Part shown: piece by piece, positions 11,864-27,935 of the stretch
Numbering within the stretch: position 1 is the first letter of the stretch
How the letters are laid out: each line of letters starts with the position of its first letter
Assembly: GCA_035497355.1 (NCBI GenBank)
Contig: DATJDP010000103.1
Location: forward strand, 1 to 57,259
From: Flavipsychrobacter sp.
Lineage (GTDB): Bacteria; Bacteroidota; Bacteroidia; Chitinophagales; Chitinophagaceae
Direction: 5' to 3'
DNA: 57,259 bases
Notes under the pieces: generated by a model
The model's input: the letters and a program-made list of their open reading frames with translations, nothing else
The model's database searches: none
What the model was told of the DNA's origin: nothing
Made by a program: the position numbers and the translations under genes

Positions 11864-11997
11864 TAGGGATACATATAGAAACTCAGTCTCTTTTATCATC
11901 TCCGGTTAATTAACGAAACGCGGGTAGTTAACAGCAGTAAATCTGGTTATGGTTTGGTATTTGCTGAGATTAGGCAAAGATTTGTATTTTGATCATT

Positions 11998-13698: not shown

Positions 13699-13699
13699 C

Positions 13700-14161: not shown

Positions 14162-14198
14162 TTCCGTTATATTTTAGCCCTCAACATAATTTGAGTTC

Positions 14199-15140: not shown

Positions 15141-15335
15141 GCCTGGCTTCTGCGGCGCTGGCTGTGGCGATGGCTCGTGGCGATGGCTTACAAACCTCCC
15201 CCGCTCAGGCACAAAGCCTACGCTCGCCCCTCCAAAGGGGGATAGGCCACTGCTACAAGCCAGAGCCGATTTGATAATTTGGTGATTTGATGAGGAGAGG
15301 CCAGCGCTACCAGCCAGAGCACTTCCGCCAGCGCC
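15141..15335. repeat. Repeat mosaic: (GGCNNN)n tract, a GC hairpin word, gatttga words and a second hexamer tract
   Basis: ggcttctgcggcgctggctgtggcgatggctcgtggcgatggc directly follows the CPBP stop. Further elements are cccctccaaaggggg, gatttgataatttggtgatttgatga and ccagcgctaccagccagagc…. Confidence 0.8.
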
Positions 15336-15336
15336 G

Positions 15337-16468
15337 CTATCTACTGCCTATCAGAAAATCTTCAAAATTTCCCGGGTGAATCGTCTGAAAATTGCTGTTT
15401 TCATAAGCCTGCAGAAATTGGGTTGGCTTCCTGGTCTTTGCTGTAGGATTCCACTTAAATTCATAAGCGCTTATTGCGCCATCTTCCTCTTCAATAAAAT
15501 CAATTTCCCTTTGCTCTTTAGTAGCCAAAACCAATAATTAACCCATCTACCTGAGTAGTTCAAGTGCTTTATTCTTTCCGAAATGATAAAATTTCCCATA
15601 GAGCACCAGCGTCGCTTCTGCTTTCAACAAAGTTGAAGTTGGCTATAAGGGCGTTCCGGATACCATTATCATAAAAATAGAATTTTTTGCTGCTCTTCAG
15701 TTCATTTCTCAGGTTGCGGCTGAAGGAACTTAGCCTAAAAATGACAAATGCTTGTTCAAGGAGAATTATGTATTTTTCAACTGTTTTCGAGTCGAGACCA
15801 CAGATCTGGCCCAACTCGTTATAGGATACCTGAGCACCAAGCTGAAACGCTAAGGCCTGTAACAATTTCAGCACCTTGTCAGGCTTTTGTATTTGTTCCC
15901 ACATAAGGATATCCTTATACAGGTAACTATCCGACAGTTGCTTGAGTATTTCCTTTTCTTCACCTTCATTTGTTATCACATCCGGATAGTAGCCGAAGAC
16001 CATCCGGTGTTTTAATAAACGTTTTTCTTCCAGCAAGCCATGATGATCTACCATCTCTGTGAAAGAAACCGGAAACATACGATATTCCCATTTTCTGCCC
16101 GTCAAGGGTTCGTTTACTTTGTTCGCCAGATCAAAGGAGGAGCTGCAGGTAGCGATAAGTTACACTTCCGGTAAGGTATCGGTTATCAACTTTAGCCGCA
16201 GACCTATATTTTCAATTCTCTGCGCTTCATCAATGATCACTACTTTCTTATTTCCGATAATAGAACGTAGCCTTGTAGCCGAAACTTCGGAAAATAGCTG
16301 CTGAACATCCAGTTCGTCGCCGTTCAGCCAAAGCATATCGCCATTATGGTCAAAAATTTTTCGTAGTAAGGTCGTTTTGCCTACCTGTCGCGCACCGGCC
16401 AAAATAATGGCCTTCTTCCTAAACAGCTTGTCTGTTATGATGTTCTCCAACTTTCGCTGAATCATATT
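15337..16468 (-). pseudogene. AAA+ ATPase with DUF4143-type C-terminal domain, inactivated by one in-frame stop and one frameshift
   Basis: Three consecutive ORFs (16160-16504, 15569-16105, 15337-15534) together give one collinear protein with Walker A GARQVGKTT and Walker B VVIIDEAQ. The TAA (complement of 16160-16162) is in frame with the next ORF and sits where the protein continues …[29 protein letters not shown]. The third piece is in a different frame. Confidence 0.8.
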
Positions 16469-16524
16469 CCTCAGAAGTAGCAACTTTTTCGGATTGCAAT
16501 CCAAAAAGGTGGTAATTGGTGATT

Positions 16525-17115
16525 GTCTGAATCAGGATTTACATGATTTGAGGATTAACAATAATGATGAATTGTGAATTATGATTTATGAACGGCGGGG
16601 CGCGAGCAAATGATGAACCACAGAATGCGAGTGTCCGATATTCTTTGTCATCCCGCCTGCCTATAGCCCCACCCAACCTCCCCGAAGGGGGCGCCCAGCG
16701 CGATAACGGTCTGAATCAGGATTTACATGATTTGAGGATTAACAATAATGATGAATTGTGAATTATGATTTATGAATGGCGGGCGCGAGCAAATGATGAG
16801 CCACAGAATGGAGTGTCCGATATTCTTTGTCATCCCGCCTGCATATAAGCCCCACCAACCTCCCCGAAGGGGAGGAGCGCATGGCGATATCCAATGGGAT
16901 CACAAATAAACATGAAGTAGCCCTTCTCTGTCCGGCACTACAGTAGTACTAAAGCGCAGTAGAGAGACATGACGAACATAGGAAGTCTTTATGTTCGCCG
17001 GCTTTTTTGGTTACTTTTTTAGCCGGAAAAAAGTAACAGAAAGACTCTGAACCAGAATTTATAGGATTTATGGATTGACAGAATAAGACTTTCGCACAAA
17101 GGCCAGAGCTTCTGC
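16525..17115 (+). repeat. Long repeat element, copy 1: 184-bp tandemly duplicated 5' module (16525-16708, 16709-~16892) plus a 3' terminator-bearing module
   Basis: gtctgaatcaggatttacatgatttgaggattaacaataatgatgaattgtgaattatga… occurs twice head-to-tail. The 3' part (…gatatccaatgggatcacaaataaacatgaagtagccc…cgcacaaaggccagagcttctgcc) recurs at 25957-26262 and 27446-27812. Confidence 0.9.
16972..17008 (+). terminator. Intrinsic terminator inside repeat copy 1
   Basis: acgaacata-ggaagtctt-tatgttcgcc followed by ggcttttttgg. A second 11-bp-stem hairpin follows immediately (gttactttttt-agccgg-aaaaaagtaac). Confidence 0.6.
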
Positions 17116-17588
17116 CAGTGCCATCGCCACCAGCCACAAGCCATAGCCATTAGCCATAGCCATTGCCACCAGCCATAGCCATAGCCATTAGCCATAGCCA
17201 AATCCCACGGAGCGACTAGAGCCAATAGCCAGTGCCAATAGCCAGCGCCAGTGCCACCAGCCATCGCCATCGCCACCAGCCACCAGCCATAGCCATTAGC
17301 CATAGCTATAGCCAAATCCCACGGAGCGACTAGAGCCAACGCCGCAGGCCAGTGCCATCGCCATCGCTATCGCCACCAGCCATAGCCGTTAGCCATAGCT
17401 ATAGCCAAATCCCACGAGCGACTAGAGCCAACGCCGCAGGCCAGAGCCAGAGCCAGCGCCAGTGCCACCAGCCACCAGCCATAGCCGTTAGCCATAGCTA
17501 TAGCCAAATCCCACGGAGCGACTAGAGCCAACGCCGCAGGCCAGAGCCAATAGCCAGCGCCAGTGCCACCAGCCACCGGCCATCGCCC
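17101..17588. repeat. Largest (NNNGCC)n hexamer-phase tract (~490 bp) with a conserved core recurring 4 times
   Basis: Reads as agtgcc atcgcc accagcc … atagcc attagcc …. The core aaatcccacg(g)agcgactagagcc lies at 17200, 17314, 17407 and 17506 (spacing 114, 93, 99 bp). The last three copies extend to …gccaacgccgcaggcc. Confidence 0.9.
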
Positions 17589-18230
17589 CTACCGCAACAA
17601 CCCATAAATAGCTGCTCCGCTAACGATACAGGTAATGACTGAAATGAGCTTGCGTTTTCTATTCTCATTATGAACCTGTTTCTGCAATTGTTGATTATCC
17701 TTCAGCAAATTCTGTTGTTGATCCAAACACCGGGAAGAAGTAAGCTGCAGCTCATTAATGTATTGCTCAGCCTCGTCCACCATACTATCTTTTGTCAATG
17801 CCTGCTGTTCCAATCCGGATGTCAGTTCACCATAAAGACTATCGGTATAGTGATGGTTATCCGCCAGGAGTATAACGGCTGTCCGGAGGCTGTCGCAGTT
17901 CGTCAATAATGCGGAAGTGTCTTTATATCCTCTCCCATTTTCTGCTAACCGACGGGTGCGTTGCTCTATGGCTTTTTGTTTTCCCTTTTCTCTCGCCAAT
18001 TGCTGTTTCGTAGCAGCTACCTCTTTGTCGATATTAATCTGTTGTTGCCGGAAAGCTTTTCTGGCGCTGTCCCACTGTTCTGCTTTTTGTTGCAAGCTGT
18101 TCTGTGCTGTTATACGCTGTTTTTCCAGCACCGTATCATAACGTTTTACCGGGATGAATATGGAGCGCAGAGCATAGCCCGAAATAAAGCCAAGACATAC
18201 GCAGGCAATAGCAATCATTTTAGTGTTCAT
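17589..18230 (-). CDS. Coiled-coil protein anchored by N- and C-terminal TM helices (spanin-like architecture)
   Basis: From MNTKMIAIACVCLGFISGYAL (TM) through a Q/K/E-rich helical middle to C-terminal LISVITCIVSGAAIYGLL (TM). The start is placed at the ATG complementary to 18228-18230 to avoid overlap with the upstream ORF. Confidence 0.5.
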   Translation of the reverse strand: MNTKMIAIACVCLGFISGYALRSIFIPVKRYDTVLEKQRITAQNSLQQKAEQWDSARKAFRQQQINIDKEVAATKQQLAREKGKQKAIEQRTRRLAENGRGYKDTSALLTNCDSLRTAVILLADNHHYTDSLYGELTSGLEQQALTKDSMVDEAEQYINELQLTSSRCLDQQQNLLKDNQQLQKQVHNENRKRKLISVITCIVSGAAIYGLLR

Positions 18231-18256
18231 AGGTTTTTTGTTTTTTATTGTTTTTA

Positions 18257-18457
18257 TCAATTGCTTTTCTTTTCCAGCGAATAACCGAAGCATCCGGCGG
18301 CCACCATGGAACTAAAACCATAGAAGATGTATTCCGGCATCGGCTTTTCGAAGAATTGCATGGCCAGCCACCCCGTTATTAAAGCGAGGACCAGCAATGC
18401 TATTACAATCTCCCGGAGGCTGTAGCTTCCGTCTTTATCTTTAAATAGTTGTCTCAT
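18257..18457 (-). CDS. Small two-TM membrane protein (holin-like)
   Basis: 66 aa with hydrophobic segments IVIALLVLALITGWLAMQFF and IFYGFSSMVAAGCFGY and a charged C-terminus. It lies between the putative wall hydrolase and the coiled-coil TM protein. Confidence 0.45.
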   Translation of the reverse strand: MRQLFKDKDGSYSLREIVIALLVLALITGWLAMQFFEKPMPEYIFYGFSSMVAAGCFGYSLEKKSN

Positions 18458-18461
18458 TTTG

Positions 18462-18522
18462 ATTTGATAATTTGATGATTTGATGATTGGCCTTAGCTAT
18501 GGCTAATGGCTATGGCTAATGG
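18462..18522. repeat. gatttga word repeat followed by a short (GGCNNN)n tract
   Basis: gatttgataatttgatgatttgatgattgg then ccttagctatggctaatggctatggctaatggc. Confidence 0.8.
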
Positions 18523-18582
18523 CTTGTTTCTGTGTTTTCTTTTTGCAAACTGCCAACTGGAAACTCTCTTTTCTGCCATCTG

Positions 18583-19155
18583 CTACCTGCCTTCCTCCAG
18601 CAGTGTGTAGGTAAACTGGTTCCCATATGCTTTACGATGCCGCTCACAAAGCCTCATGAACAGTGCAAAGTCTTCCGCGGATTGAAACACCTGACATCCC
18701 GCAGAATAGCGGTCTACGAAAGTTGTTTTACCTCTTTGCATCGCTCGGTGAATGTTAATACCGAAATATCCCGTTTCCGTTTTTCGCTCGTCAGGGTCCA
18801 GCATGCTGTTCCGGTTGTCATCGCGATACACCGTCACAGGACCTCGCTGTACCAGAGCAAGATATTTTCGGCGATGCATCCCCAGTTGATAAGCGTTCTG
18901 GTATTGACCTGCATGGAGAATAGCTGCGCCTTTTGTGTTCATAGGCTTTGTTAGCCATACTGTACCGGGATCAGTAGTTGCAGAAAAGGACAAGCACTGT
19001 TCATTGTCTTTATCATCGTTATACCATAGATGGATTGTATCGTCGAATGCATTGGCGGTCCGGCTTGCTGACCGTACGCCTATTATATTTAGCTCAAAAG
19101 GACGGGTATAAATCTTATACTTTTTCTCTGTCAGGGTTTGTTTCAGGTTGTTCAT
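18583..19155 (-). CDS. Putative peptidoglycan hydrolase (phage-endolysin-like; YkuD-like H…SxGC signature)
   Basis: 190 aa with no signal peptide. Contains …FELNIIGVRS…, …GINIHRA……RYSAGCQVF, which resembles the His/Cys catalytic arrangement of L,D-transpeptidase-fold enzymes. The family assignment is from memory of the motif pattern only. Confidence 0.4.
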   Translation of the reverse strand: MNNLKQTLTEKKYKIYTRPFELNIIGVRSASRTANAFDDTIHLWYNDDKDNEQCLSFSATTDPGTVWLTKPMNTKGAAILHAGQYQNAYQLGMHRRKYLALVQRGPVTVYRDDNRNSMLDPDERKTETGYFGINIHRAMQRGKTTFVDRYSAGCQVFQSAEDFALFMRLCERHRKAYGNQFTYTLLEEGR

Positions 19156-19159
19156 GATT

Positions 19160-19392
19160 GGTTTCTTTGTTTTTCTTTTTTGCCACTAAGACATTAAGGC
19201 GGTAAGTTCTTTTTGCTTTTGCGTTTTGGTTTTGCCAACTGCTTCTTCTTTTTTTTGGCGTTTCTACGTTTTTCGATTTTGCCACCAAGACACTAAGGCG
19301 GTAAGTTTTTTTTGCGTTTTTGGCTTTGCAAACTGCAAACTGCCAACTCTCTTTTCTGCCTTCTGCCAACTGCAAACTGCCAACTCTCTTTT
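19160..19392. repeat. Two ~60-bp direct repeats plus CTGCCAA heptamer words
   Basis: ttttgccacNaagacaNtaaggcggtaagtt…ttgc occurs at ~19178-19235 and ~19272-19335, followed by ctgcaaactgccaactctcttttctgcc repeated. Confidence 0.8.
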
Positions 19393-19788
19393 CTACCTTC
19401 TGCTAACTGCCAACTGCCAACTCTCTTTCAGCATCTCCATGATAGCTGCGGGTGTGTAGGTTCCCACTAAGGGCCGGGCACCCGGCAGCGGAAGTGCTGC
19501 CGGATGTACGCCCATCACCTTGGCTTTCGGGTGCTGCTCCGATAGAGTGGCCAGCAGACAAAAGAGCGATTCGCATTGCTTGTCCGAAGGTGCGCCCTTG
19601 GCTGCAATGAGCGCAATGGTAAGTGTACCCGCTTCCGGAGAAAGCGTCTTCCCACGGGTTATCTTGCCACCAGGTCGAATGGTGCAATAGATGTCTTTTT
19701 CTTTTCTTACCGCCGCTACTGTCCTGAATTCGGCGATCAGGATATAGCGGATATTATAGGTTGTCGTTTTTATTGTTTTCATGATCAT
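19393..19788 (-). CDS. Amidase_2/PGRP-like domain protein, apparently degenerate
   Basis: 131 aa. The segment YCTIRPGGKITRGK…TLTIALIAAKG…SDKQCESLFCLLATLSEQHPKAKVMGVH is collinear with the T7-lysozyme-type pattern Y-FII-RDG-V-GR…IGV-L-G…T-Q-SL-L…. The expected zinc-ligand His and Cys are not evident. The C-terminal tail runs into repeats. Confidence 0.35.
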   Translation of the reverse strand: MIMKTIKTTTYNIRYILIAEFRTVAAVRKEKDIYCTIRPGGKITRGKTLSPEAGTLTIALIAAKGAPSDKQCESLFCLLATLSEQHPKAKVMGVHPAALPLPGARPLVGTYTPAAIMEMLKESWQLAVSRR

Positions 19789-20044
19789 AGGGTTTTAGGG
19801 GCTGGTCGTTTTTATTTTTCGTTTTTTGTGCAGCGATCCGCTCGGCAATCAGCTTAAATAACAGCCATACGGCTCCGCCGATCATTGCCCTCATCAGGTA
19901 GTCGGCAAGTGTTTCTGCCTGCGTTTGCAGCATCAGCACAGAGGCTGTGAGCAACATACCGTGATTGGATCTTTTTGGTTTTTGCTGCTCTTGCCTGCAC
20001 TCGTCATTCGCAGCGTTAATCGGATTTGTAGTATTCGTTTTCAT
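19754..20044 (-). CDS. Small membrane protein (one or two TM segments), upstream partner of the amidase-like gene
   Basis: 96 aa with hydrophobic stretches GMLLTASVLML and MIGGAVWLLFKLIA. It overlaps the next ORF by 35 nt. Confidence 0.35.
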   Translation of the reverse strand: MKTNTTNPINAANDECRQEQQKPKRSNHGMLLTASVLMLQTQAETLADYLMRAMIGGAVWLLFKLIAERIAAQKTKNKNDQPLKPYDHENNKNDNL

Positions 20045-20089
20045 AAGGTTTTTTTAAGTTTAAGTGTTAGTTTTCAAACGATGCATCTT

Positions 20090-20526
20090 TGGGCGAAAGG
20101 GCTTATTGTTTCTTCACTTTTCTTTTTTGCTTCAAATGGCGAAACACTCATTGTCTCTTCATTTTCTTTTTCTTTCAAACGGCGAAGCCCTCATGAGCTA
20201 CCAATAAAAAAATCAATACTATCAGCGAGTAAAAGAAAACGAAGCAAAAGAAAAGACATGACAAATCGAATCGCTCCGCGCGATTTGTCGGGCTATACGC
20301 TGTTAACGCAACTCGCTAATCGACTCCATGGCGCTGTTTGGTATGTTCAACCGGAGGCCTTGATTGTCTCATTCCCTACATCATCACAGCGGCACTTTTC
20401 AGCGTAGTCAAAGAATACAAAGAGGCGCCATCATGGGTTCGGTAGTATAGCTATATTAGGCAGTACCCAAGCGGCTTTCATCCAACAAAAGCGTCATTGG
20501 CAACCTTTAGGTGAAGCAATCTGTGG
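20090..20526 (+). repeat. Third copy of the 'double-hairpin' repeat family also seen at 54640-54845 and 55322-55565
   Basis: gacaaatcgaatcgctccgcgcgatttgtcgggctatacgctgtt at 20260-20304 and gtcattggcaacctttaggtgaagcaatctgtgg at 20493-20526. The ggcgaaNcactcatt words at ~20130-20200 match 55460-55480. Confidence 0.8.
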
Positions 20527-20559
20527 CATTGAGAGCGTTTCCTTGTCTTTTCGTTTCGA

Positions 20560-20960
20560 CGTTTTTTCATTCTGCCCTCTGCCACCTCTGCTTTCTTCCT
20601 ACTTTCCTTCCGGCTGTACATTCAGCATTTTTCCCTTTGCCCTCTGCCCTCTGCCAACTGCCAACTGCCAACTCCCTTTTCTGCCCTCTGCCAACTGTTC
20701 TCTGTCTTCTGTCTGGGCGAACACGCAGGTTCGCCCCTACGTGTTTGCAAACTGCAAACTGCCAACTCTCACTTTATGCCCTCTGCCAACTGTTCTCTGT
20801 CTTCTGACTGGGCGAACACGCAGGTTCGCCCCTACGTGTTTGCCAACTGCAAACTGCCAACTCCCTTTTCTGCCTTCTGCCAACTGCAAACTGCCAACTC
20901 TCTTTTCTGCCAACTGCCAACTCTGCCTTCTGCCTTGTGCAGTTCTCCCGTCCGGGTCAA
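20560..20960. repeat. CTGCCAA heptamer-word region containing two ~80-bp direct repeats, each with a GC hairpin gggcgaac-acgcag-gttcgccc
   Basis: Hairpins lie at 20715-20736 and 20810-20831. The surrounding …ccaactgttctctgtcttctg…cctacgtgtttgc-aactgcaaactgccaact is duplicated with a ~95-bp period. Confidence 0.85.
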
Positions 20961-21004
20961 TGACCGGCAGACTTGCTGCCAGCCATTGCCGTAACAGGAA
21001 GAGT

Positions 21005-21625
21005 TTAGCTTACAAGTTGTTTTGTAGGATTGCTCCACTCACTCACCATTCCCTGAGAACCAAATGCACGCACGCGGAACCAGTATTCCTCTTTGCGCAA
21101 CAGGCCATTGACCACGGTTCTGGATGCGCTGATGATCGGCGATTTCACCCAGTTGTCCTCTGTCATCGGGTCCTTACAGTATTCCACTTCGTAGGATTTT
21201 GCATTGCTCACTTTTTTCCAGCGCAGGATCACCGCCTCGCCATAAATGCTTTCCGTGCGCAGATCCGTCGGCGTATTCAAAAAATCGTAGCGCATAGGGC
21301 CGCGACGTTTCATCGGCAGGCCGGCAAGCAAAATGATGTCTTCGTTGCCGCGACTGATGTTCCATACATAGTTGGCAAGCACCGTTAGATTTTCCTCAAG
21401 CGTACGCCTCTTGGAATTTCGTGTGGCAGTGGCTGCCTTTCCGCCCAGCAGTGTTGCTGCCTGCGCTGCTTTCAGATCATCAATAGAAGATTGAAAATCG
21501 ACAAGTGCCAATGTCGGTGTGGTGAAGATGGTGGCGTTGTCCGTCATTCTGGTAAAGACGTCTTCCGCAAAAGTGAGTAGCTGATCGGGATTCATAGTGT
21601 ACAGTTTCAAAGCGATCTGTGTCAT
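21005..21625 (-). CDS. Fibronectin type III domain protein with an N-terminal helical domain
   Basis: 206 aa. The C-terminal ~90 aa read …PTDLRTESIYGEAVILRWKKVSNAKSYEVEYCKD…WFRVRAFGSQGMVSEWSNP…, the classic FN3 pattern (W…Y-V…Y-FRV-A…G-S-WS). Confidence 0.65.
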   Translation of the reverse strand: MTQIALKLYTMNPDQLLTFAEDVFTRMTDNATIFTTPTLALVDFQSSIDDLKAAQAATLLGGKAATATRNSKRRTLEENLTVLANYVWNISRGNEDIILLAGLPMKRRGPMRYDFLNTPTDLRTESIYGEAVILRWKKVSNAKSYEVEYCKDPMTEDNWVKSPIISASRTVVNGLLRKEEYWFRVRAFGSQGMVSEWSNPTKQLVS

Positions 21626-21896
21626 AGTTTTTATTGTTTTTTGTGTTTAAGAGATTTTATTTCGATTATTAAAAAAGGTAAAGACGTTTGCGGACGATTA
21701 TGATAATAGGATCCGCTGATAGCGACAAGCGCTAAGGAGGTTCATACTTTTCTTTCGTCAGCAGCCACCGCGGTGTGCCGGAGTAGAAGCGGCGTTTAAA
21801 GGGGTTGGCTATCAGTGCTGCATGGCGCTTATTCTTCCCTCTCCGGCAATGTTGCATCCATTGCCTCTTTTCAGGCCTTCTTAGCCTCCAAAAAGC

Positions 21897-22358
21897 AAAC
21901 GAGTTGTCGTTCGTAGCAAACGAGTTATCGTTCGTGACACACGAGTACTCGTTCATAGCAGACGAGTTATCTCTTATAACGAACGAGTTATTGTTCCTGG
22001 CAGACGAGTTATCGTTCGTAGCAGACGAGTTATCGTTAATGACAGACGAGTTATCATTTGTGACAAACGAGTTATCGTTCACTACACATGAGTTATCGTT
22101 TACTACACATGAGTTATCGTTGATGACACATGAGTTATCGTTGATGATGCACGAGTTATTGTTTGTAGTAAACGAGTTGTCGTTGATGACACACGAGTTA
22201 TCGCTCGTAGCAAACGAGTTGTCGTTGATGACGCACGAGTTATCATTCGTGACAGACGAGTTATTGGTCGCAACAGACGAATTATCGTTCATCACACATG
22301 AGTTATCGTTCGTGACAAACGAGTTATCGTTGATCACAGACGAGCATTCGTTTAGGTT
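21897..22358. repeat. Tandem array of 22 units of exactly 21 bp; each unit holds the palindrome AACGA-gtta-TCGTT
   Basis: Units were read individually (aaacgagttgtcgttcgtagc, aaacgagttatcgttcgtgac, …, agacgagcattcgtttaggtt). There are no indels, so phase is kept throughout. Both strands stay open (NDNSxVx on minus, NELSxVT on plus). Confidence 0.95.
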
Positions 22359-22439
22359 TTTTAGGGGCTGGCTGATTATTTGGCGACGTTGTAGCATTTT
22401 CTATCGTTCTATTGATTTCGAATGCAAATATGGGGGTGT

Positions 22440-23036
22440 CGCCTACCCCTGGGTATCGAAAAAGGCAACTTAAGGTAACTAAAGGCAAAAGATGACCACT
22501 TAAGGCAAAAGATGACCACTTAAGGCAACTAAAGACAACTTAGGGACACTTAAGGGAACTAAAGGCAACTTAGGGACACTTAAGGGAACTAAAGGCAACT
22601 TAAGGAGAAGTGGAGGAGTGTGGAAGTGGAGAAGTGAAGGAGTTGATTTGGTGATTTGGTGATTTCGGTGGTGAAGACGTGAAGAAGTGAAGAAGTTGAG
22701 AAGTTGATTCGTACAATGCGCCAGTGCCAGTGCCAGTGCCAAAGCCAAGGCCAGAGCCAAAGCCACAGTCACGGCCATCGCCATCGCCAGCGCCATCGCC
22801 AGAGCCATCGCCAGAGCCATTGCACGCACCCCCTCATGAGGGCTTCGCCGTTGCACCCCGCAAAGAAAGAACAGCTGATGTTAACCACAGATTGCTTCTC
22901 CTAAAGGATCGCAATGACGGCTTTTTTGTTCTTGTCCCGCGCCACAGCCAGCGCCACAGCCACCAGCCATCGCCATCGCCATCGCCATCGCCATCGCCAC
23001 AGCCACCAGCCATCGCCCCCGCCATTAGCCAGCGCC
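22440..23036. repeat. Repeat mosaic: 22-bp and 30-bp direct repeats, gaagtg/gatttg words, and two (NNNGCC)n tracts (22720-22822, 22941-23036)
   Basis: cttaaggcaaaagatgaccact occurs twice and aaaggcaacttagggacacttaagggaact occurs twice. The junction gaagttgattcgtacaatgcgccag plus tract is repeated at 24348-24385. Confidence 0.85.
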
Positions 23037-24164
23037 AAAAAACCGGTTTTCGAGCCAGTAGCGGTACAACGGATCAAGAAAGCTTAGCTTACCATTCATA
23101 TCATCAAGAACATCATTTTGAATCAGCGACTCTTTCAATCTGACCACATTCGCAGAGGTTCCAAGACGGTAAGCTCTTAATGTCTTCTGTGCCGATAATT
23201 GCTCTTCTCCGTTAATGATCGCACGTAACAACTCTAGTTGCCGGCTGTTTAAACCTTCTGTAGTATTGGCAAAAAGCAGGCTCAGCTGATCAATAACCGA
23301 TTCATAGGCAATATTGACTATTTCTCCCGTGCAGTGATGAGTGGTGCGGAACCAGGCCTGTTGCGACAACTGCTGTACATAGTAAGGGTGGTTATCAACC
23401 AGCGTACAGATCAATGCCGCTATATCCCCCGGTATTTCCTTTCCTGTGTCTGCAAATCTTTTGACAATAAAAGAAATCCACTCCACAGAAGCTATTTTCT
23501 GAAGGAAGAATAAATCGCCAAATTTGTAAAATGGCATAGACGGATTAGTAAATATATCAGTAAGCATATGTCGCTTGCTGCCATACAAACAGTACGCTAC
23601 ATGCCGGTGTTGCTGCCAGTGCGAGCGGAGCTTCCGTTGGAAGGCCGCTGCGTCGTCAAACAGCCCTATGTTTTGAAACTCATCAATGCATAGGATCAGT
23701 CGCAGCTTTTTTTCCTCCGCGATTTTTTCTGCCAGATTCAATATCTCGTCGGGCTGCTGTTTTAGTTCCTGCCATCCTATGCTAAAAGACAGCTCCGCCT
23801 GATCGTCGGGCGCAAAAGAAATCCTGGGAACGAGATTAGATAGAAATTTTTTGGCACTTGCAGCAAATTCTTCCCAGGTAGAAGCGGTAGCTTTCAATAT
23901 CTGATTGGCAAGCGATTGGTAAAACTCAACTTCATTTCGAATATTGAATATATCCAGGTGAATGATCCTCATATCGCGATGCTCTGCGGTTATAATTGCT
24001 CCTGCGGTTCGCACGAGCGAGGACTTACCCCATCTTCTAGGTGAAATGATGATAGTATTTGTGAGTGCTTCAAAATTATTTTTTAGTTGACTGATCTCCT
24101 TCACCCTGTTGGTAAAATCAATCGAATCGGGCACTTTACCATACGAAAAAGGAACTGGTTTCAT
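23025..24164 (-). CDS. AAA ATPase (archaeal-ATPase/DUF234-like 'ATP-binding protein')
   Basis: 379 aa with Walker A SPRRWGKSSL and Walker B LILCIDEFQ, followed by a helical C-terminal domain. The stop codon lies inside a hexamer tract. Confidence 0.7.
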   Translation of the reverse strand: MKPVPFSYGKVPDSIDFTNRVKEISQLKNNFEALTNTIIISPRRWGKSSLVRTAGAIITAEHRDMRIIHLDIFNIRNEVEFYQSLANQILKATASTWEEFAASAKKFLSNLVPRISFAPDDQAELSFSIGWQELKQQPDEILNLAEKIAEEKKLRLILCIDEFQNIGLFDDAAAFQRKLRSHWQQHRHVAYCLYGSKRHMLTDIFTNPSMPFYKFGDLFFLQKIASVEWISFIVKRFADTGKEIPGDIAALICTLVDNHPYYVQQLSQQAWFRTTHHCTGEIVNIAYESVIDQLSLLFANTTEGLNSRQLELLRAIINGEEQLSAQKTLRAYRLGTSANVVRLKESLIQNDVLDDMNGKLSFLDPLYRYWLENRFFGAG

Positions 24165-24244
24165 ATATTATAAATGGAGTAAAGTTAATGAAGAGCCAAC
24201 AACTTACAAAGTAGTAAGTTACGAAATGGTAAGTTACGAAATGG

Positions 24245-24473
24245 TTAGCTAGTGAGATGATTTGATGATTTCGGTGGTGACGAAGTGGAGGAGTGGTGGA
24301 GTGGAGGAGTTGAGAAGTTGATTTGATGATTTGGTGATTTCAGAGTGAAGAAGTGAAGAAGTTGATTCGTACAATGCGCCAGAACCATTGCCATTGCCAG
24401 AGCCATTGCCAAAGCCATTGCCATTGCCATTGCCAAAGCCAAAGCCAAAGCCAAAGCCAAAGCCAAAGCCAGC
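24245..24473. repeat. gatttga / gaagtg word repeats followed by an (NNNGCC)n tract (24378-24473)
   Basis: …gaagttgattcgtacaatgcgccagaaccattgccattgccagagccattgccaaagcc… ends in six aaagcc units. Confidence 0.85.
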
Positions 24474-24563
24474 CACTTTCTATTAAAATATCTACCATGT
24501 TAATAGCCGTGGTATTCTCAGGAATATTTTTTTCTTTTTTTTCTACAATAACGGTTTCACCCA

Positions 24564-24571
24564 TATCTTTG
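24564..24571 (+). promoter_or_regulatory. Candidate -7 box TATCTTTG upstream of the XRE/ImmA gene
   Basis: Exact TAnnTTTG match 22 nt upstream of the ATG at 24593. No convincing -33 TTG was seen. Confidence 0.3.
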
Positions 24572-24592
24572 CTGCTGAACAATGGACTGATT

Positions 24593-25624
24593 ATGAGTGA
24601 AGTAAACGGGAATATGATTTTATTGGCAAGGGAAAGCAGAGGATGGACTCAGGCGCAATTAGCCGGAAAAATGGATACCACCCAGAGCAACATTACCAAG
24701 ATGGAACATGCCGAACATGGCACCAATGAGGAATGGACAGCTAAAATAGCGGAAGCCACAGGATACCCCCTGTCTTTTTTCTATCAGAAGGGAGGCATTA
24801 TTCCTGAAAACCTGAATTACCGCAGAAGGGAGAAAGTAGCACAGTCTATATTGTCCCCCCTCAATGCACAGATGACCATTTACCGGCTACAGATAGAAAC
24901 TATAACAGCCGCCCTTAATATACCTGCTATACAATTGCCCGTTCTTGAAGTGACCGAAGAAGCCACGCCACAGGCAATCGCACAAAAGCTGCTTCAGAAA
25001 TGGCATGTTCCCAAAGGGTCCGTAGCAAATCTTACTGATATCATTGAAGGACACGGAATTGTGGTGAACATGTTTGATTTCGGGACAGCACGGGTGGACA
25101 GCCGTTGCCTGATCTCGGAAAACGGTATCCCTATCATTTTTATGAACAGCAGCCTCCTCGGCGACCGTCAGCGGTTCTCGCTTGCCTATCAGTTAGGACA
25201 TCTGATCATGCATACGAGCTCCAACATCTCCTGGGATCGCGACACTGGCCATGAGGCGAACTTGTTCGCGGCAGAACTGCTCATGCCGGAAAAAGATATC
25301 CGTGCGGACTTTGAACAGGGTATCTCCCTGCCGCTTCTGGGTAATCTTAAAAAGAAATGGAAAGTCTCGATGATCGCGCTGCTCTATCGTGCCGATGACC
25401 TGGGCTATGTGACGCCCCAGCAGAAAAAAGCCCTGGTACAACAGTTCAACGACAGGCAGATACGGAGAAGAGAACCAGTAGAACTGGATGTGCCACTGGA
25501 ACAACCACGCTTGCTGCGCCAATGGCTTTCACAGTTGAAATCAGAAAGGAGGATGAACACCTCAGAGCTTGCAGCCATGCTGCATCTGCAGGCCAATGAA
25601 TTTGTAGCGCTATATAATTATTAA
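24593..25624 (+). CDS. XRE-family HTH fused to an ImmA/IrrE-like (COG2856-type) domain with a degenerate HEXXH site
   Basis: MSEVNGNMILLARESRGWTQAQLAGKMDTTQSNITKMEHAE is a Cro/C1-type HTH. Downstream, …RFSLAYQLGHLIMH… stands where ImmA proteins have …AHELGH…, and …EANLFAAELLMPEKDI is the family signature. The ORF-track start at 24353 is repeat-derived. Confidence 0.75.
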   Translation: MSEVNGNMILLARESRGWTQAQLAGKMDTTQSNITKMEHAEHGTNEEWTAKIAEATGYPLSFFYQKGGIIPENLNYRRREKVAQSILSPLNAQMTIYRLQIETITAALNIPAIQLPVLEVTEEATPQAIAQKLLQKWHVPKGSVANLTDIIEGHGIVVNMFDFGTARVDSRCLISENGIPIIFMNSSLLGDRQRFSLAYQLGHLIMHTSSNISWDRDTGHEANLFAAELLMPEKDIRADFEQGISLPLLGNLKKKWKVSMIALLYRADDLGYVTPQQKKALVQQFNDRQIRRREPVELDVPLEQPRLLRQWLSQLKSERRMNTSELAAMLHLQANEFVALYNY

Positions 25625-25669
25625 TAAAGAACCGAAAAACAGAGAGTTAAGAACGGAAACAAGACTTTT

Positions 25670-25894
25670 ATGCAGAGCAAAAGAGAAAATGGGGGGAAGC
25701 CTGTAGTGCGCGCATACACCTATAAGGAACTGATGGATATATACAATGTAAGCCGGAAAACACTGATGTCGTGGCTGGAACCTGTCAGAGAAAAGATTGG
25801 AAAGAAAAGAGGTCGCTGCCTTAGCCCCGGGCAGGTAGAAATAATCTTTGAGGAGCTTGGCTATCCGAAAAATATTGGGGACGATGTGATTTGA
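25670..25894 (+). CDS. Small DNA-binding protein, DUF4248-like
   Basis: 74 aa. The pattern …VRAYTYKELMDIYNVSRKTLMSWLEP…LSPGQVEIIFEELGYP matches what I recall for Bacteroidetes DUF4248. Confidence 0.5.
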   Translation: MQSKRENGGKPVVRAYTYKELMDIYNVSRKTLMSWLEPVREKIGKKRGRCLSPGQVEIIFEELGYPKNIGDDVI

Positions 25895-26285
25895 TGAAGA
25901 AGTGAAGGAGTGGAGGAGTTAAGAAGTGAAGGAGCTAATTTGATGATTTGATAATTGTCTGAATCAGGATTTAAGGATTAACAAGATAGGCCCCACCCAA
26001 CCTCCCCTTCGGGGAGGAGCGCCCAGCGATATCCAATGGGATCACAAATAAACCTGAAGTAGCCCTCCTCTGTCCGGCACTACAGTAGTACTAAAGCGCA
26101 GTAGAGAGACATGGCGAACATAGGAAGTCATTATGTTCGCCGGCTTTTTTGGTTACTTTTTTAGCCGGAAAAAAGTAACAGAAAGACTCTGAACCAGAAT
26201 TTATAGGATTTAGGATTGACAGAATAAGACTTTCGCACAAAGGCCAGAGCTTCTGCCATCGCCATCGCTACCAGCCATCGCCACT
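25895..26285 (+). repeat. Word repeats plus long repeat element copy 2 (short form, 25957-26262) plus a hexamer tract
   Basis: gtctgaatcaggatttaaggattaac…ccccacccaacctccccttcggggaggagcgcccagcgatatccaatggg… is near-identical to 16860-17115 and 27545-27812. Confidence 0.9.
26113..26150 (+). terminator. Intrinsic terminator inside repeat copy 2
   Basis: ggcgaacata-ggaagtcat-tatgttcgcc followed by ggctttttt. Confidence 0.6.
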
Positions 26286-26729
26286 ACTCCGGTCATTAAA
26301 CGCATCAAGTTTACTAGCGATAAAATAGGCGACCGGAAATATTCTTATCTGTATTCCATGTTCCGAAGTATAAGTTTGCAAATGTTTGAAACCTTCCTTA
26401 TACCAGCGGCTTTTGAAGCCGAGCACTTCTTCCTCCGTGGGCATAATGTCAACGATAAGCCCCTGATACTTATAACGGCATGTGATCTTTGCTTCAGTAT
26501 CTAATGCAAACCCCAGAACCCTTAGCCTTTCCTGCAGTTTTGTGTAAGCGCTATAGGTGGCTATCTCGACGAGCACATCAATATCATCGGTCGGTCTCGT
26601 ATCCGTTTGCTCAGGGTGATCGGCATATAAAGACACGGTTGCTCCACCGACAAATGCAATATCATCCTTCAGTTCAACTAAGGCACTAGCTACACCTTTG
26701 ATTCTTATAAGGTTAATATGATGGCTCAT
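26268..26729 (-). CDS. Nucleotidyltransferase-fold protein (AbiEii/MNT-like), with its C-terminus replaced by repeat sequence
   Basis: …FVGGATVSLYA…RPTDDIDVLVE is a GG…DxD nucleotidyltransferase signature. The last residues SSGDGW are encoded by the hexamer tract, which suggests 3' truncation. Confidence 0.55.
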   Translation of the reverse strand: MSHHINLIRIKGVASALVELKDDIAFVGGATVSLYADHPEQTDTRPTDDIDVLVEIATYSAYTKLQERLRVLGFALDTEAKITCRYKYQGLIVDIMPTEEEVLGFKSRWYKEGFKHLQTYTSEHGIQIRIFPVAYFIASKLDAFNDRSSGDGW

Positions 26730-27234
26730 AAATTTCCTGTTTCAGTTTTTCTATTGCTAATTCTTTCTCCCTTACTTTTCCCATTCTTATGACATCAATC
26801 AAGGCGAGGTACAAATAAAGCTTGCTGTCCATTTTGGCCGCATTTACAGCACCAGGATACAATGGCTGTACACTTAGGCCTCTATAACCACTCTCTACGT
26901 CCGGCCAAACATATATCTCACTGTCGACTATTTTTTCCTTGAAATATTCATGGCTATGACCCGTGGGCATCCCTTTCGCCATGCCGCCCGGTGTCTGAGG
27001 AAAAATATACGGGAGTCCATAAATAAGAAATTCTGTAAAGGACTGTAATCTGATTTTTTTGTGATCCGCATCAAACAGTCCGGAGATTGCATTTCTCTGA
27101 AGAGAATTAGATATCTCTGCGGTGCTTAAATAAAGTTCGGCAGCCAACTCCTTATTCATCCATGACTTTCTGTTTGCACTAATGATTTTTAACAGTACAA
27201 CGACATCCTGGGGGCGCATGTTGGAATTTACCAT
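26713..27234 (-). CDS. Winged-helix DNA-binding protein, upstream partner of the nucleotidyltransferase
   Basis: 173 aa. The N-terminus …DVVVLLKIISANRKSWMNKELAAELYLSTAEISNSLQRNAISGL is MarR/wHTH-like. It overlaps the downstream gene by 17 nt. Confidence 0.5.
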   Translation of the reverse strand: MVNSNMRPQDVVVLLKIISANRKSWMNKELAAELYLSTAEISNSLQRNAISGLFDADHKKIRLQSFTEFLIYGLPYIFPQTPGGMAKGMPTGHSHEYFKEKIVDSEIYVWPDVESGYRGLSVQPLYPGAVNAAKMDSKLYLYLALIDVIRMGKVREKELAIEKLKQEIYEPSY

Positions 27235-27299
27235 GAGGCAAATATAAAAAATTACATGGTTTATGATTTATAAATCGTAAATCACTTAATGTGATTCTA

Positions 27300-27920
27300 C
27301 ACTAATGGTGTAGCTATCAGAACAACCACAGCAAGTGCCATAGCCATAGCTTTTTTGCCATCGCCATCGCCACGAGCCATCGCCAATGCCGCAGGCCAGT
27401 GCCAATAGCCAGCGCCACAGCTAACCACGGAGGCACGGAGATCATCAATAATGATGAATTGTGAATTATGAATGGCGGGCGGAAGCAAATGATGAACCAC
27501 AGAATGCGAGCGTCGGATATTCTTTGTCATTCCGCCTGCATATAAGCCCCACCCAACCTCCCCTTCGGGGAGGAGCGCCCAGCGATATCCAATGGGATCA
27601 CAAATAAACATGAAGTAGCCCTCCTCTGTCCAGCACTACAGTAGTACTAAAGCGCAGTAGAGAGACATGGCGAACATAGGAAGTCTTTATGTTCGCCGGC
27701 TTTTTTGGTTACTTTTTTAGCCGGAAAAAAGTAACAGAAAGACTCTGAACCAGAATTTATAGGATTTATGATTGACAGAATAAGACTTTCGCACAAAGGC
27801 CAGAGCTTCTGCCAGTGCCATCGCTATAGCCATCGCCATCGCCACCAGCCACTGCCTTCTGCCAGTGCCATGGCCACCAGCCACCAGCCACTGCCATCGC
27901 CAGAGCCGCAAGCCAGCGCC
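27300..27920 (+). repeat. Hexamer tract (27331-27420), long repeat element copy 3 (27446-27812) and a second hexamer tract (27799-27920)
   Basis: caataatgatgaattgtgaattatgaatggcggg…tataagccccacccaacctccccttcggggaggagcgcccagcgatatcc… was read against copies 1 and 2. Confidence 0.9.
27669..27705 (+). terminator. Intrinsic terminator inside repeat copy 3
   Basis: ggcgaacata-ggaagtctt-tatgttcgcc followed by ggctttttt. Confidence 0.6.
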
Positions 27921-27935
27921 CTCAGCTACACTGCT

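What the first reader, a model, noticed from the sequence alone, without database searches (positions are those of the whole stretch)
15141..27935. Cassette-like architecture: every accessory gene or gene pair is bracketed by the same modular repeat (35-bp module + (GGCNNN)n tract ± long element)
**Layout between 15.1 and 27.9 kb**, where R is a block from one repeat family: CPBP | R | decayed ATPase | R | lysis-like genes | R | FN3 | 21-bp array + R | AAA ATPase | R | XRE-ImmA + DUF4248 | R | NTase + wHTH | R | acetyltransferase.

**Right of the polysaccharide locus** the pattern returns: wzc | R | HEPN + MNT | R | epimerase.

**Precision of the junctions.**
- Tract edges coincide with gene ends to within a few nt (stops at 15140, 17589, 23025, 27936, 55666).
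- In two cases the tract supplies the C-terminal codons: 26268 NTase (…SSGDGW) and the 23025 ATPase.

The cargo (TA pairs, ATPases, regulators, wall hydrolases) is what chromosomal cassette arrays typically carry. Neither an integrase nor a transposase is present in the window. This looks like an uncharacterised cassette-delimiting or insertion-scar repeat system rather than random intergenic REPs.
Basis: partly seen in the sequence, partly recalled or inferred. Interest (0 to 1): 0.7.

Follow-up and report, generated by a model that had tools for sequence, protein, structure and literature searches.

The report
Mosaic intergenic repeats, not gene cassettes
The spacers between accessory genes in this Bacteroidota contig are filled with fast-changing mosaics of short non-coding repeats, one piece of which recurs in at least five bacterial phyla; they resemble known intergenic repeat mosaics rather than an integron-like gene-cassette system.

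Summary
The repeats are real and far above chance, but they are not one repeat at every junction. The 35-bp module has 11 copies in only 5 of 12 accessory-zone spacers. (GCCANN)n tracts occur in most spacers, and other spacers hold only 7-10-nt arrays. In this contig, modules and tracts are confined to the two accessory zones (9/12 spacers against 0/9 elsewhere, p=0.001).

Integron-like features fail. No recombinase domain was found in the window. The module forms no single-strand hairpin. Orientation relative to genes is not constant.

Between strains the gene order is kept. Every indel lies in a repeat block, as unit-number changes or gain or loss of sub-elements. The NTase is truncated at a GDG microhomology with the tract. 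Two synteny breaks do fall in repeat blocks.

The module is one arm of a palindromic MITE-like element found in Bacteroidota, Poribacteria, Chloroflexota, Pseudomonadota and Clostridia. No transposase partner was found.

Best reading: a lineage-specific BIME/NIME-like mosaic of dispersed repeats and simple-sequence arrays. It accumulates in a variable defence and polysaccharide island, and recombination there is a by-product. A genome-wide census could not be run.

The parts
16522..16561 (+). GGATT-phased module, A type (GTCTGAATCAGGATTTACATGATTTGAGGATTAAC). A second identical copy lies at 16707-16745.
   Evidence: E 4e-10 and 2e-9 against a profile of 86 copies from other genomes
17046..17087 (+). 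Module, B type (TCTGAACCAGAATTTATAGGATTTATGGATTGAC). It forms the right end of the long element. Further B copies lie at 26188-26227 and 27744-27782.
25954..25983 (+). Short A-type module after the DUF4248-like gene. Homology between strains ends at 25987, just after it.
55072..55296 (-). Three reverse-oriented modules (55072-55115 degenerate, 55179-55221, 55254-55296), each followed by an (NNTGGC)n tract. They form tandem tract-plus-module units of 75-106 nt. A further degenerate copy lies at about 55594-55640.
   Evidence: (D11, D19)
56628..56661 (-). Reverse-oriented module between MNT and the epimerase. It is flanked by an AATTATG array and a tract.
17102..17587 (+). Longest (GCCANN)n tract. 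Units are 6 or 7 nt, with a higher-order unit of about 100 nt containing AAATCCCACGGAGCGACTAGAGCC. It ends 1 nt before the stop of gene 17589-18293. Strain L124 lacks 325 nt of it.
   Evidence: (D16)
22720..23036 (+). Two tracts (22720-22818 and 22941-23036) separated by element E5 (22825-22945). The 198-nt E5-plus-tract segment and a further 48 nt of tract are absent in strain L124. The right-hand tract encodes the last codons of ATPase 23025-24164.
24378..24470 (+). Tract in the divergent spacer between ATPase_2 and XRE-M78. Strain L134 differs by two hexamer units and by changes at the variable NN positions, with the GCCA core kept.
26243..26282 (+). Short tract fused to the 3' end of the truncated AbiEii NTase. 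The junction lies in the native GDG codons.
27357..27920 (+). Spacer between the wHTH gene and the acetyltransferase. Order: tract 27357-27416, E1 27447-27541, E2 27542-27742, B module, tract 27799-27920, then an AGTGAAGC 8-mer array that supplies the stop codon of gene 27936-28601.
15154..15187 (+). Tract in the opposite (NNTGGC) orientation, directly after the CPBP stop. Further opposite-orientation tracts lie at 18489-18523, 54611-54685, 55326-55366, 56483-56535 and 56704-56738.
25986..26270 (+). Long element (E2 plus B module plus linker). Other copies lie at 16844-17128 and 27542-27826, 78-98% identical over the full 285 nt (the E2 core alone 94-98%). Each copy carries a 10-13-bp hairpin followed by a T run, an intrinsic terminator on the + strand (16973-16997, 26112-26142, 27668-27698).
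   Evidence: (D2)
16560..16889 (+). Two tandem E1 units (16560-16708 and 16744-16889): an AATTATG array followed by a GGCGGG...CCCGCC hairpin. A third copy lies at 27447-27584 and a fragment at 56585-56624 (-).
20233..20304 (+). Element E3 (hairpin GACAAATCG..CGATTTGTC). Further copies lie at 54756-54849 and 55478-55566. E5 copies lie at 54682-54767 and 55363-55472 in reverse orientation.
   Evidence: (D18)
18544..20940 (+). CTGCCAA-type heptamer arrays with 37- and 95-nt higher-order units (18544-18589, 19325-19428, 20633-20940; also 56762-831). Strains differ by single 7-nt units and by 25-81-nt blocks.
   Evidence: (D3, D10)
22461..22707 (+). 10-mer (AAGGCAACTT) and 8-mer (GAAGTGGA, TGATTTGG) arrays. 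The same 8-mers recur at 15268-15293, 18460-18488, 24256-24362 and 25895-25956. Unit number differs between strains.
   Evidence: (D4, D8, D13)
21894..22344 (.). 21-bp array of 21 units, open on both strands. It is called as a 221-aa ORF but has no family match. No unit-number change was seen between the window and L124.
   Evidence: (D1)

Best explanation
The 'R' blocks are a lineage-specific mosaic of non-coding repeats that turns over quickly. They are comparable to the interspersed mosaic elements of E. coli (BIMEs) and of Neisseria (NIMEs), not to a cassette recombination system.

**Components**
1. Solo arms of a palindromic MITE-like element. Its arm, TTGTCTGAATCAGGATTTACAGGATT.., carries RRATT motifs every 8-9 nt and is found in many phyla.
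2. Degenerate simple-sequence arrays. These are (GCCANN)n tracts with 6- or 7-nt units, plus CTGCCAA, TGATTTGA, GAAGTGGA, AATTATG and 10-mer arrays.
3. A few longer dispersed elements (E1, E2, E3, E5). One of them, E2, carries an intrinsic terminator.

**Shown**
- Arrays grow and shrink by whole units.
- Sub-elements are gained and lost.
- Blocks are copied locally.
- Blocks run right up to gene ends, and occasionally into them.

**Inferred**
- The arrays change by replication slippage and unequal recombination.
- The blocks pile up between separately acquired, separately transcribed accessory genes next to a variable polysaccharide locus, because long spacers there tolerate them.
- Their dispersed homology and microhomology make these spacers preferred break and rejoin points. 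This gives a cassette-like look without any dedicated recombinase.
For: **Mosaic make-up.** The same small vocabulary recombines in different orders. Three alleles of one spacer exist in the population: arrays-A-tract, arrays-A-E2-B-tract, and arrays-E1-E2.

**Slippage-type dynamics.** Against two strains about 97.5% identical to the window (ungapped columns), every indel of at least 6 nt but those of one site, the thyA-folA spacer (an extra small gene in L121), lies in a repeat block. The indels are single 7-, 8- and 10-nt units, 48 and 325 nt of tract, and a 198-nt E5-plus-tract segment. Gene order is unchanged.

**Local copying.** Long-element copies at 25986 and 27542 are 98% identical. 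Blocks 54616-54774 and 55297-55455 are 93% identical.

**Gene ends eroded, not precisely cut.**
- NTase: the full-length relative reads ..DRGNGDGRTSKDF.. (237 aa); the window copy reads ..DRSSGDGW* (153 aa).
- Acetyltransferase: ..IVKQ* against ..IVKANGK*.
- HEPN..GLCN* against ..GLFSGAE*.

**Lineage-specific load.** Relatives with 76-78% identical CPBP: the one scanned (L122) shows no tandem repeat in 21 kb; in both (L122, L147) the next gene starts 2-3 nt after CPBP.

**Short arrays are general in this genome.** They also fill spacers between core genes.

**The module is a generic intergenic element elsewhere.** 79 of 120 genome loci carry the extended form. 85 of 88 copies are intergenic. 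17 inverted pairs form 47-188-nt palindromic units.

**Assemblies break in these blocks.** This is consistent with high copy number.

**Precedent.** Intergenic heptamer arrays are described in Beggiatoaceae, cyanobacteria and Bacteroidetes (PMC4679880).
Against: - Modules, tracts and E1-E5 occur only in the two accessory zones of this contig (Fisher p=0.0011). Passive accumulation predicts this only loosely.
- The GCCA core of the tract is kept while the next 2-3 nt vary. Simple slippage would be expected to homogenise units, so selection or a special generating process is possible.
- All three long-element copies keep a strong terminator, which hints at function.
- The genome-wide distribution could not be examined.
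Confidence: 0.6

Rival explanations
1. Homology-driven cassette exchange (a weak form of the reader's idea). The repeat blocks act as portable homology, so that gene blocks lying between them are swapped by general recombination after DNA uptake. This would resemble the minimal mobile elements and NIMEs of Neisseria. The blocks would then be kept because they make the island modular.
For: - Both synteny breaks seen between strains lie in repeat blocks. One is at w25987, directly after a module: NTase+wHTH are replaced there by a 65-aa gene plus a 372-aa HEPN gene and a different polysaccharide locus. In the other, the lysis-like genes sit next to thioredoxin, TerC and M1 peptidase instead of ATPase and CPBP.
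- The repeats are restricted to accessory zones.
- The same vocabulary is used in both zones flanking the polysaccharide locus.
Against: - In this island every spacer is a repeat block, so any break must fall in one.
- The replaced segment at 25987 is a whole locus, not a single cassette.
- Two strains share gene order across seven junctions while the repeats vary.
- Orientation and make-up of the blocks differ from junction to junction.
- No empty site or single-cassette polymorphism was found.
Confidence: 0.2
2. Selected regulatory or insulating elements. The blocks would provide terminators, small RNA genes or arrays of protein-binding sites (TGGC or GGATT every 6-9 nt) that isolate neighbouring, foreign transcription units or tune their expression through changes in unit number.
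For: - A strong + strand intrinsic terminator is conserved in all three long-element copies. One lies directly behind the + strand pair XRE-M78 and DUF4248.
- The GCCA core is conserved while neighbouring bases vary.
- One tract lies in a divergent promoter spacer and differs by two units between strains.
- In other genomes many modules end 3-35 nt from a start codon.
- Heptamer arrays upstream of start codons have been proposed as regulator binding sites (PMC4679880).
Against: - No Rfam family matches.
- The long element's folding energy is unremarkable (z -1.4 and -2.0).
- Two of the three terminator copies face away from any upstream + strand gene.
- Positions relative to genes are inconsistent.
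- Close relatives do without any of it.
- No expression data are available.
Confidence: 0.12
3. A true site-specific cassette system of the integron type, with the recombinase encoded outside this contig.
For: - Direct repeats of the module (A and B) flank the long element.
- The cargo is typical of cassette arrays: toxin-antitoxin pairs, ATPases and regulators.
Against: - The module does not fold as single-stranded DNA (z -0.45 to +0.31).
- It has no inverted-repeat structure in the window.
- It is present at only 5 of 12 junctions.
- Genes are not co-oriented.
- A and B flank non-coding DNA, not genes.
- No recombinase domain was found in 57 kb.
Confidence: 0.04
4. Assembly artefact: a chimeric or collapsed metagenome contig in repeat-rich DNA.
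For: Most independent contigs end inside these repeats.
Against: Independent JGI, Logan and ENA assemblies reproduce the junctions. L124 spans 8.1 kb across seven blocks. L121, L133-L146 agree with the window at the gene-repeat borders.
Confidence: 0.02

Closest known systems
Bacterial interspersed mosaic elements (BIMEs: REP/PU plus other motifs) of enterobacteria, and REPINs
   Same: They are extragenic and often sit at 3' ends of genes. They are built from a small set of short motifs combined in variable order, are present in many copies, are polymorphic between strains, and can carry terminator-like hairpins.
   Different: The units here are not palindromic REPs. Much of each block is degenerate tandem 6-10-mer array. 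No RAYT gene is seen in the window. Membership is not claimed.
Neisseria intergenic mosaic elements (NIMEs: RS units flanked by dRS3) and minimal mobile elements. This comparison rests on my own knowledge, not on a paper read here.
   Same: Both are arrays of 50-150-nt repeat units bounded by a short conserved repeat. They lie between variable genes and are associated with rearrangement and gene-block replacement by homologous recombination.
   Different: The sequences are unrelated. No phage integration or uptake-sequence link is shown here. The tract component has no Neisseria counterpart.
Short tandemly repeated heptamers and long simple sequence repeats of cyanobacteria, Beggiatoaceae and some Bacteroidetes (STRR; TAACTGA arrays, PMC4679880)
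   Same: Both are intergenic tandem arrays of 6-10-nt units, often several kinds mixed in one spacer. They are lineage-sporadic, variable in unit number, of unknown function, and sometimes directly next to start or stop codons.
   Different: The unit sequences differ. The tract here has a fixed 4-nt core with variable remainder and 6/7-nt alternation. The arrays are interleaved with dispersed elements.
MITEs
   Same: In other genomes the module occurs as two inverted arms enclosing 0-140 nt (47-188 nt in all). These units are non-coding and intergenic, and also occur on viral contigs.
   Different: No target-site duplication and no autonomous partner were found. In the window only solo arms in direct orientation occur. 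MITE families are reported to be mostly genus-specific (bioRxiv 10.1101/2024.01.18.576219), whereas this arm spans at least five phyla.
Integron gene-cassette arrays (attC sites)
   Same: Short repeats separate small accessory genes, and the cargo includes toxin-antitoxin pairs.
   Different: There is no IntI, no attC-type hairpin, no co-orientation of genes and no constant repeat at each junction. The repeats flank non-coding DNA as often as genes.

Membership tests
Integron cassette array | IntI-type tyrosine recombinase with attI next to the array | tested here: not met
   Pfam scans of the sizeable ORFs of the 57-kb contig found no integrase, recombinase or transposase domain. The rest of the genome was not available.
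Integron cassette array | attC: an imperfect inverted repeat that folds into a bulged hairpin as single-stranded DNA | tested here: not met
   A and B modules were folded on both strands as DNA. Energies were -1.2 to -3.3 kcal/mol, with z-scores -0.45 to +0.31 against shuffles.
Integron cassette array | Co-oriented ORFs, each followed by one recombination site | tested here: not met
   Genes lie on both strands. The module is present in 5 of 12 spacers. Module orientation is + at 16-28 kb and - at 55-57 kb, although the flanking genes are mostly on the - strand in both zones.
Integron cassette array | Cassettes gained or lost as units between strains, with the repeat as the boundary | tested here: inconclusive
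   Gene order is the same in L121 and L124. One replacement starts right after a module at 25987, but it involves a whole locus. A second break lies in a block for which no DNA was available.
REP / BIME / REPIN | Short palindromic unit, 20-40 nt | tested here: not met
   The module has no internal dyad beyond CTGA-N-TCAG. Palindromic pairs are seen only in other genomes.
REP / BIME / REPIN | Extragenic, with mosaic combination with other motifs | tested here: met
   All 11 module copies and all tracts are extragenic or at most overlap the last codons of a gene. The order of motifs is variable.
REP / BIME / REPIN | Cognate RAYT (TnpA-REP) gene in the genome | not testable with these tools
   None in the window. 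The other contigs of the genome could not be retrieved.
MITE | Terminal inverted repeats enclosing a short non-coding core | tested here: not met
   No inverted partner in either accessory zone: the six copies at 16.5-27.8 kb are all +, the five at 55.1-56.7 kb all -. The feature is met in 17 loci from other genomes.
MITE | Target-site duplication and a related autonomous element with the same ends | tested here: not met
   Flanks of 17 paired elements show no duplication. No shared neighbouring protein family was found. Distant inverted pairs enclose ordinary genes.
Simple-sequence arrays (STRR / LSSR) | Tandem arrays of short (about 5-11 nt) units in intergenic DNA | tested here: met
   Tandem Repeats Finder reports 111 rows. 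Arrays with periods of 6, 7, 8 and 10 nt cover 10-79% of most spacers.
Simple-sequence arrays (STRR / LSSR) | Unit-number polymorphism between strains | tested here: met
   Differences of 7, 8, 10, 12 and 48 nt, equal to whole units, occur between the window and L124, L134, L133 and L136.
Known RNA families (Rfam 15) | Match at the gathering score | tested here: not met
   No hit in the window. Only a tRNA hit in 12 related loci.

The most novel reading that the evidence does not exclude
The GGATT-phased arm is the recognition end of a still unidentified, trans-acting mobilisation system. Its host range covers at least five phyla: Bacteroidota, Poribacteria, Chloroflexota, Pseudomonadota and Clostridia, with an interrupted copy in a cyanobacterium and copies on viral contigs. 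In this lineage, its solo arms together with the TGGC-core tracts would be maintained as break and rejoin points. Blocks of a defence and polysaccharide island would be exchanged at these points without an integrase, making an integrase-free functional analogue of a cassette array.
Probability: 0.18. Interest if true: 0.65.

Novelty: new member of a known kind. Interest (0 to 1): 0.36.

Why it matters
The finding does not point to a new gene-capture system. Accessory genes separated by look-alike repeats can be produced by ordinary repeat proliferation in a variable island.

Two points are worth keeping.
- **Annotation.** This lineage carries an unusually heavy, recent load of intergenic simple-sequence and dispersed repeats that its relatives lack. 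The repeats remodel gene 3' ends, fragment assemblies and create spurious ORFs, which matters when annotating such MAGs.
- **Cross-phylum module.** The 35-bp module belongs to an apparently undescribed palindromic element whose arm is nearly identical across distant phyla. MITE and REP families are usually genus-specific, so this is unusual. It could serve as a handle on horizontal exchange among Bacteroidota, sponge symbionts and large sulfur bacteria.

Tried and rejected
**Census attempts that failed**
- Genome-wide census in the source genome. It did reveal the cross-phylum distribution, but gave no per-genome counts.
- Lineage-specific metagenome scan with the E2/B-to-tract junction: 0 hits, although JGI contig L124 contains the pattern. 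The collection evidently lacks this lineage.
- Generic (GCCANN)7 metagenome scan. It returned mostly homogeneous hexamer microsatellites or coding Gly-Ser, Gly-Asp and Gly-Tyr repeats, with no GGATT module nearby. It was uninformative for this family.
- Census through spurious ORFs that overlap E1 and E2: no or only two protein hits, and no DNA.

**Searches for a name or partner**
- Rfam at gathering and E-value thresholds: nothing.
- Literature search for the module sequence: nothing.
- Search for a transposase partner, by clustering ORFs next to 79 module loci and by inspecting distant inverted pairs: none found.

**Readings rejected**
- Coding potential of the tracts. The 7-nt units shift the frame, and only short spurious ORFs result.
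- Sigma-54-like or Bacteroidetes -7/-33 promoter readings of the arrays. These were checked by eye and did not fit.
- attC-like folding.

Full report
**1. What is in the sequence**

The window is a complete 57,259-bp public contig from a Bacteroidota organism.
- Its left 15 kb holds core genes: thyA, folA, clpX, priA, an M23 peptidase, bcp and a CPBP protease.
- 28-52 kb is a polysaccharide locus ending in wzc.
The exceptions are that the 'wHTH' protein has no family match and the DUF4248 match is weak.
- No integrase or transposase domain was found in any sizeable ORF scanned.

**2. The repeats are real but are not a single module**

The exact 35-mer occurs only twice, even with 3 mismatches allowed. 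Its 16-nt core occurs 9 times against 0.25 expected. A profile built from 86 copies in other genomes finds 11 copies, all in five spacers: 16.5-17.1, 25.9-26.2, 27.7, 55.1-55.6 and 56.6 kb.

(GCCANN)n tracts with 6- or 7-nt spacing number 18 against 0 in 100 dinucleotide shuffles.

The blocks draw on a limited vocabulary that is combined in different orders:
- module types A and B;
- tracts, in places with a 100-nt higher-order unit;
- 8-mers TGATTTGA and GAAGTGGA, 7-mers CTGCCAA and AATTATG, and a 10-mer;
- longer elements E1, E2, E3 and E5.

It has three copies, 78-98% identical over the full 285 nt (the E2 core alone 94-98%), each with a 10-13-bp hairpin and T run that reads as an intrinsic terminator on the + strand.

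Spacers 19156-19392, 20045-21004 and 21626-21731 have neither module nor true tract. The hexamers at 52178-52235 are coding sequence, the Wzc GYGYGY tail.

**3. Distribution within the contig**

Of spacers of at least 100 bp, 9 of 12 in the two accessory zones carry a module or tract. None of 9 does in the core and polysaccharide parts (Fisher p=0.0011). E1-E5 are likewise confined to the two zones.

Other short tandem arrays also fill spacers between core genes: 3400-3650, 4958-5170, 7874-7914 and 9212-9247. A high load of simple repeats is therefore a property of the genome, while these particular families cluster in the island.

**4. Tests of the cassette idea**

- The module does not fold as single-stranded DNA (z about 0), so it is not attC-like.
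- The six module copies at 16.5-27.8 kb are all on + and the five at 55.1-56.7 kb all on -, although the flanking genes are mostly on the - strand in both zones. Tracts lie after stops, before starts, or in divergent spacers.
- Modules A and B flank non-coding DNA, not genes.

**5. Strain comparisons**

Near-identical strains are available from independent assemblies.
- L121 is collinear with window 4474-16559.
- L124 is collinear, in reverse, with 14677-23216, across seven blocks.
- Both are about 97.5% identical to the window (ungapped columns) and have the same gene order.
- Every indel of at least 6 nt but those of one site, the thyA-folA spacer, lies in a repeat block. These are single 7-, 8- and 10-nt units, 25-81-nt array blocks, 48 and 325 nt of tract, and a 198-nt E5-plus-tract segment.
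- L134 differs in the 24.4-kb tract by two hexamers and by changes at the variable positions only.

After the DUF4248-like gene, the population holds at least three alleles of the spacer: arrays-A-tract, arrays-A-E2-B-tract (the window), and arrays-E1-E2. Homology ends at 25987, or at 25943 in the third allele. In the first allele the following genes are a 65-aa ORF, a 372-aa HEPN protein and a different polysaccharide locus.

In another contig, the lysis-like genes sit next to thioredoxin, TerC and M1 peptidase instead of ATPase and CPBP (no DNA was available).

So the two synteny breaks seen do lie in repeat blocks. But every spacer of the island is such a block, and no single-cassette gain or loss was found.

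**6. Why tracts touch gene ends**

- The full-length relative of the NTase (237 aa) reads ..KDRGNGDGRTSKDF... The window copy (153 aa) reads ..NDRSSGDGW*. The break is inside native GDG codons that resemble tract units, which indicates a microhomology-mediated deletion.
- The acetyltransferase ends ..IVKQ* here and ..IVKANGK* in a relative. Here its stop codon comes from an 8-mer array.
- HEPN ends ..GLCN* here against ..GLFSGAE* in a relative.

The blocks therefore expand or recombine up to the limit that protein function allows. That explains the apparent precision of the junctions without a specific cutting site.

**7. Lineage specificity**

Relatives whose CPBP is 76-78% identical keep M23-bcp-CPBP but start the next gene 2-3 nt later; the one scanned (L122) has no tandem repeat at all in 21 kb. 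Most metagenome contigs of the window's own species stop within about 100-180 nt of a gene end, inside these repeats. This is consistent with high copy number.

**8. The module elsewhere**

Of 120 loci returned for the 16-mer, 79 extend as (T)TGTCTGAATCAGGATTTACAGGATT.., with RRATT every 8-9 nt.

- **Taxa** (record titles): many Bacteroidota (Pontibacter, Mucilaginibacter, Chitinophagaceae, Saprospirales, Bacteroidales), Poribacteria, Dehalococcoidia and Caldilineaceae, Thiotrichales and Methylococcaceae, a Burkholderiales MAG and a Clostridia MAG. A Dolichospermum copy is interrupted by an insert.
- **Position:** 85 of 88 copies are intergenic, often within 35 nt of a gene end.
- **Paired form:** 17 inverted pairs form 47-188-nt palindromic, MITE-like units with no visible target duplication.
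- **Other forms:** tandem arrays exist in L038 and L032.
- **Partner:** no common neighbouring protein family or enclosed transposase was found.
- **Viruses:** 17 viral contigs carry it.
- **Prior description:** neither Rfam nor the paper library knows it.
- **Context:** a survey of MITEs reports them to be mostly genus-specific, so this spread is unusual.

**9. Interpretation**

The best fit is a BIME/NIME-like mosaic of dispersed repeats and simple-sequence arrays. It changes by slippage, unequal recombination and local copying. It accumulates in the long spacers of a variable defence and polysaccharide island, and makes those spacers preferred recombination points as a by-product (confidence 0.6).

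The rivals are:
- repeats maintained as portable homology for block exchange (0.2);
- selected terminator, insulator or regulatory arrays (0.12);
- a true site-specific system with a distant recombinase (0.04);
- assembly artefact (0.02).

Known parallels are intergenic heptamer arrays in Beggiatoaceae, cyanobacteria and Bacteroidetes (PMC4679880) and REPINs (PMC3116915). Comparisons with BIMEs, NIMEs and cyanobacterial small dispersed repeats rest on my own knowledge.

**10. Limits**

The decisive genome-wide census and a multi-strain pangenome could not be run. The source genome's other contigs were not retrievable, and both metagenome scans were uninformative.

Noticed in passing
L001-L120 (e.g. 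L085:120-206, L051:5609-5656, L016:719-804); window copies listed under parts: The 35-bp module is one arm of a palindromic, MITE-like element. Its arm (TTGTCTGAATCAGGATTTACAGGATT.., RRATT every 8-9 nt) is nearly identical in Bacteroidota, Poribacteria, Chloroflexota, Thiotrichales and Methylococcaceae, a Burkholderiales MAG and a Clostridia MAG. It also occurs on 17 IMG/VR contigs. No transposase partner, Rfam family or paper was found.
   Followed up: partly
L005, L010 (pos. 1-76), L118: In three genomes the arm is interrupted at the same place, after GGATTTACAG or GGATTTAC, by a different 22-26-nt hairpin-like insert. This is nested insertion of very small elements, reminiscent of cyanobacterial small dispersed repeats.
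   Followed up: no
L038:1-450 and L032:3490-3920: Head-to-tail arrays of the module: a 52/104-nt period in a Cytophagales MAG and a 114-165-nt period in Chitinophagaceae bacterium LWZ2-11.
   Followed up: no
window 6120-6447 versus L121:1642-2250: The 99%-identical strain has an extra 154-aa 23S_rRNA_IVP (four-helix-bundle) gene between thyA and folA. The gene is flanked by inverted 8-mer arrays (GTTGGAGA.. / ..TCTCCAAC). The window keeps only a shorter, degraded version. This is a gene-level polymorphism bounded by simple arrays, between core genes.
   Followed up: partly
window 52178-52235: The Wzc C-terminal tyrosine cluster (GYGYGYGYGYGYGGYGYGAYGNGY) is encoded by (TATGGC/TATGGT)n, the same unit type as the non-coding tracts. 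The NTase break point also lies in native GGC-GAT-GGC-like codons.
   Followed up: partly
window 15337-16504: The AAA_14/DUF4143 ATPase is split into three ORFs here, but is called as one ORF of 311 aa in L121 and 376 aa in L124. It is a recent pseudogene.
   Followed up: partly
window 21894-22344: An array of 21 units of 21 bp, open on both strands (NDNSFVT.. and NELSFVT..) and called as a 221-aa protein with no family match. Unlike the other arrays, it shows no unit-number difference between the window and L124.
   Followed up: no
window 22825-22945, 54682-54767, 55363-55472, 20487-20526: Element E5 contains ..CGTCATTGCGAACCTTTAGGTGAAGCAATC... From memory, this resembles a hairpin repeat (CATTGCGA..GAAGCAATC) that is common in many Bacteroidota and cyanobacterial genomes. 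This was not checked.
   Followed up: no
L122 and L147 (whole loci): Relatives with 76-78% identical CPBP have tightly packed genes; the one scanned with Tandem Repeats Finder (L122, 21 kb) shows no tandem repeat at all. The window has 111 Tandem Repeats Finder rows in 57 kb. This points to a lineage-specific burst of simple repeats; a mismatch-repair defect would be worth checking.
   Followed up: partly
window 17589-20044: The 190-aa protein matches phage families (phrog_3000; the endolysin family phrog_33083) and sits beside small membrane proteins. This is a phage-derived lysis module without other phage genes. In another strain it lies next to thioredoxin, TerC and M1 peptidase genes.
   Followed up: partly
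L204, L172, L154, L225, L265 (metagenome contigs): Heterogeneous (GCCATC/ATA/AGA)n runs of 100-300 nt lie inside open frames of 100-300 codons that end just before terminator-like sequences. These are possibly small Gly-Tyr/Asp/Ser-repeat proteins, unrelated to the window's lineage.
   Followed up: no
window 24353-24590 and 56441-56554: Tract sequence extends the longest-ORF calls of XRE-M78 (HCHCQSHCQSQSQ..) and MNT at their 5' ends. Other assemblies call shorter products for both (351-375 aa against 423 for XRE-M78, 97 aa against 135 for MNT), so the true starts are probably further in (for XRE-M78 the ATG near 24590). Such repeats inflate ORF predictions.
   Followed up: partly
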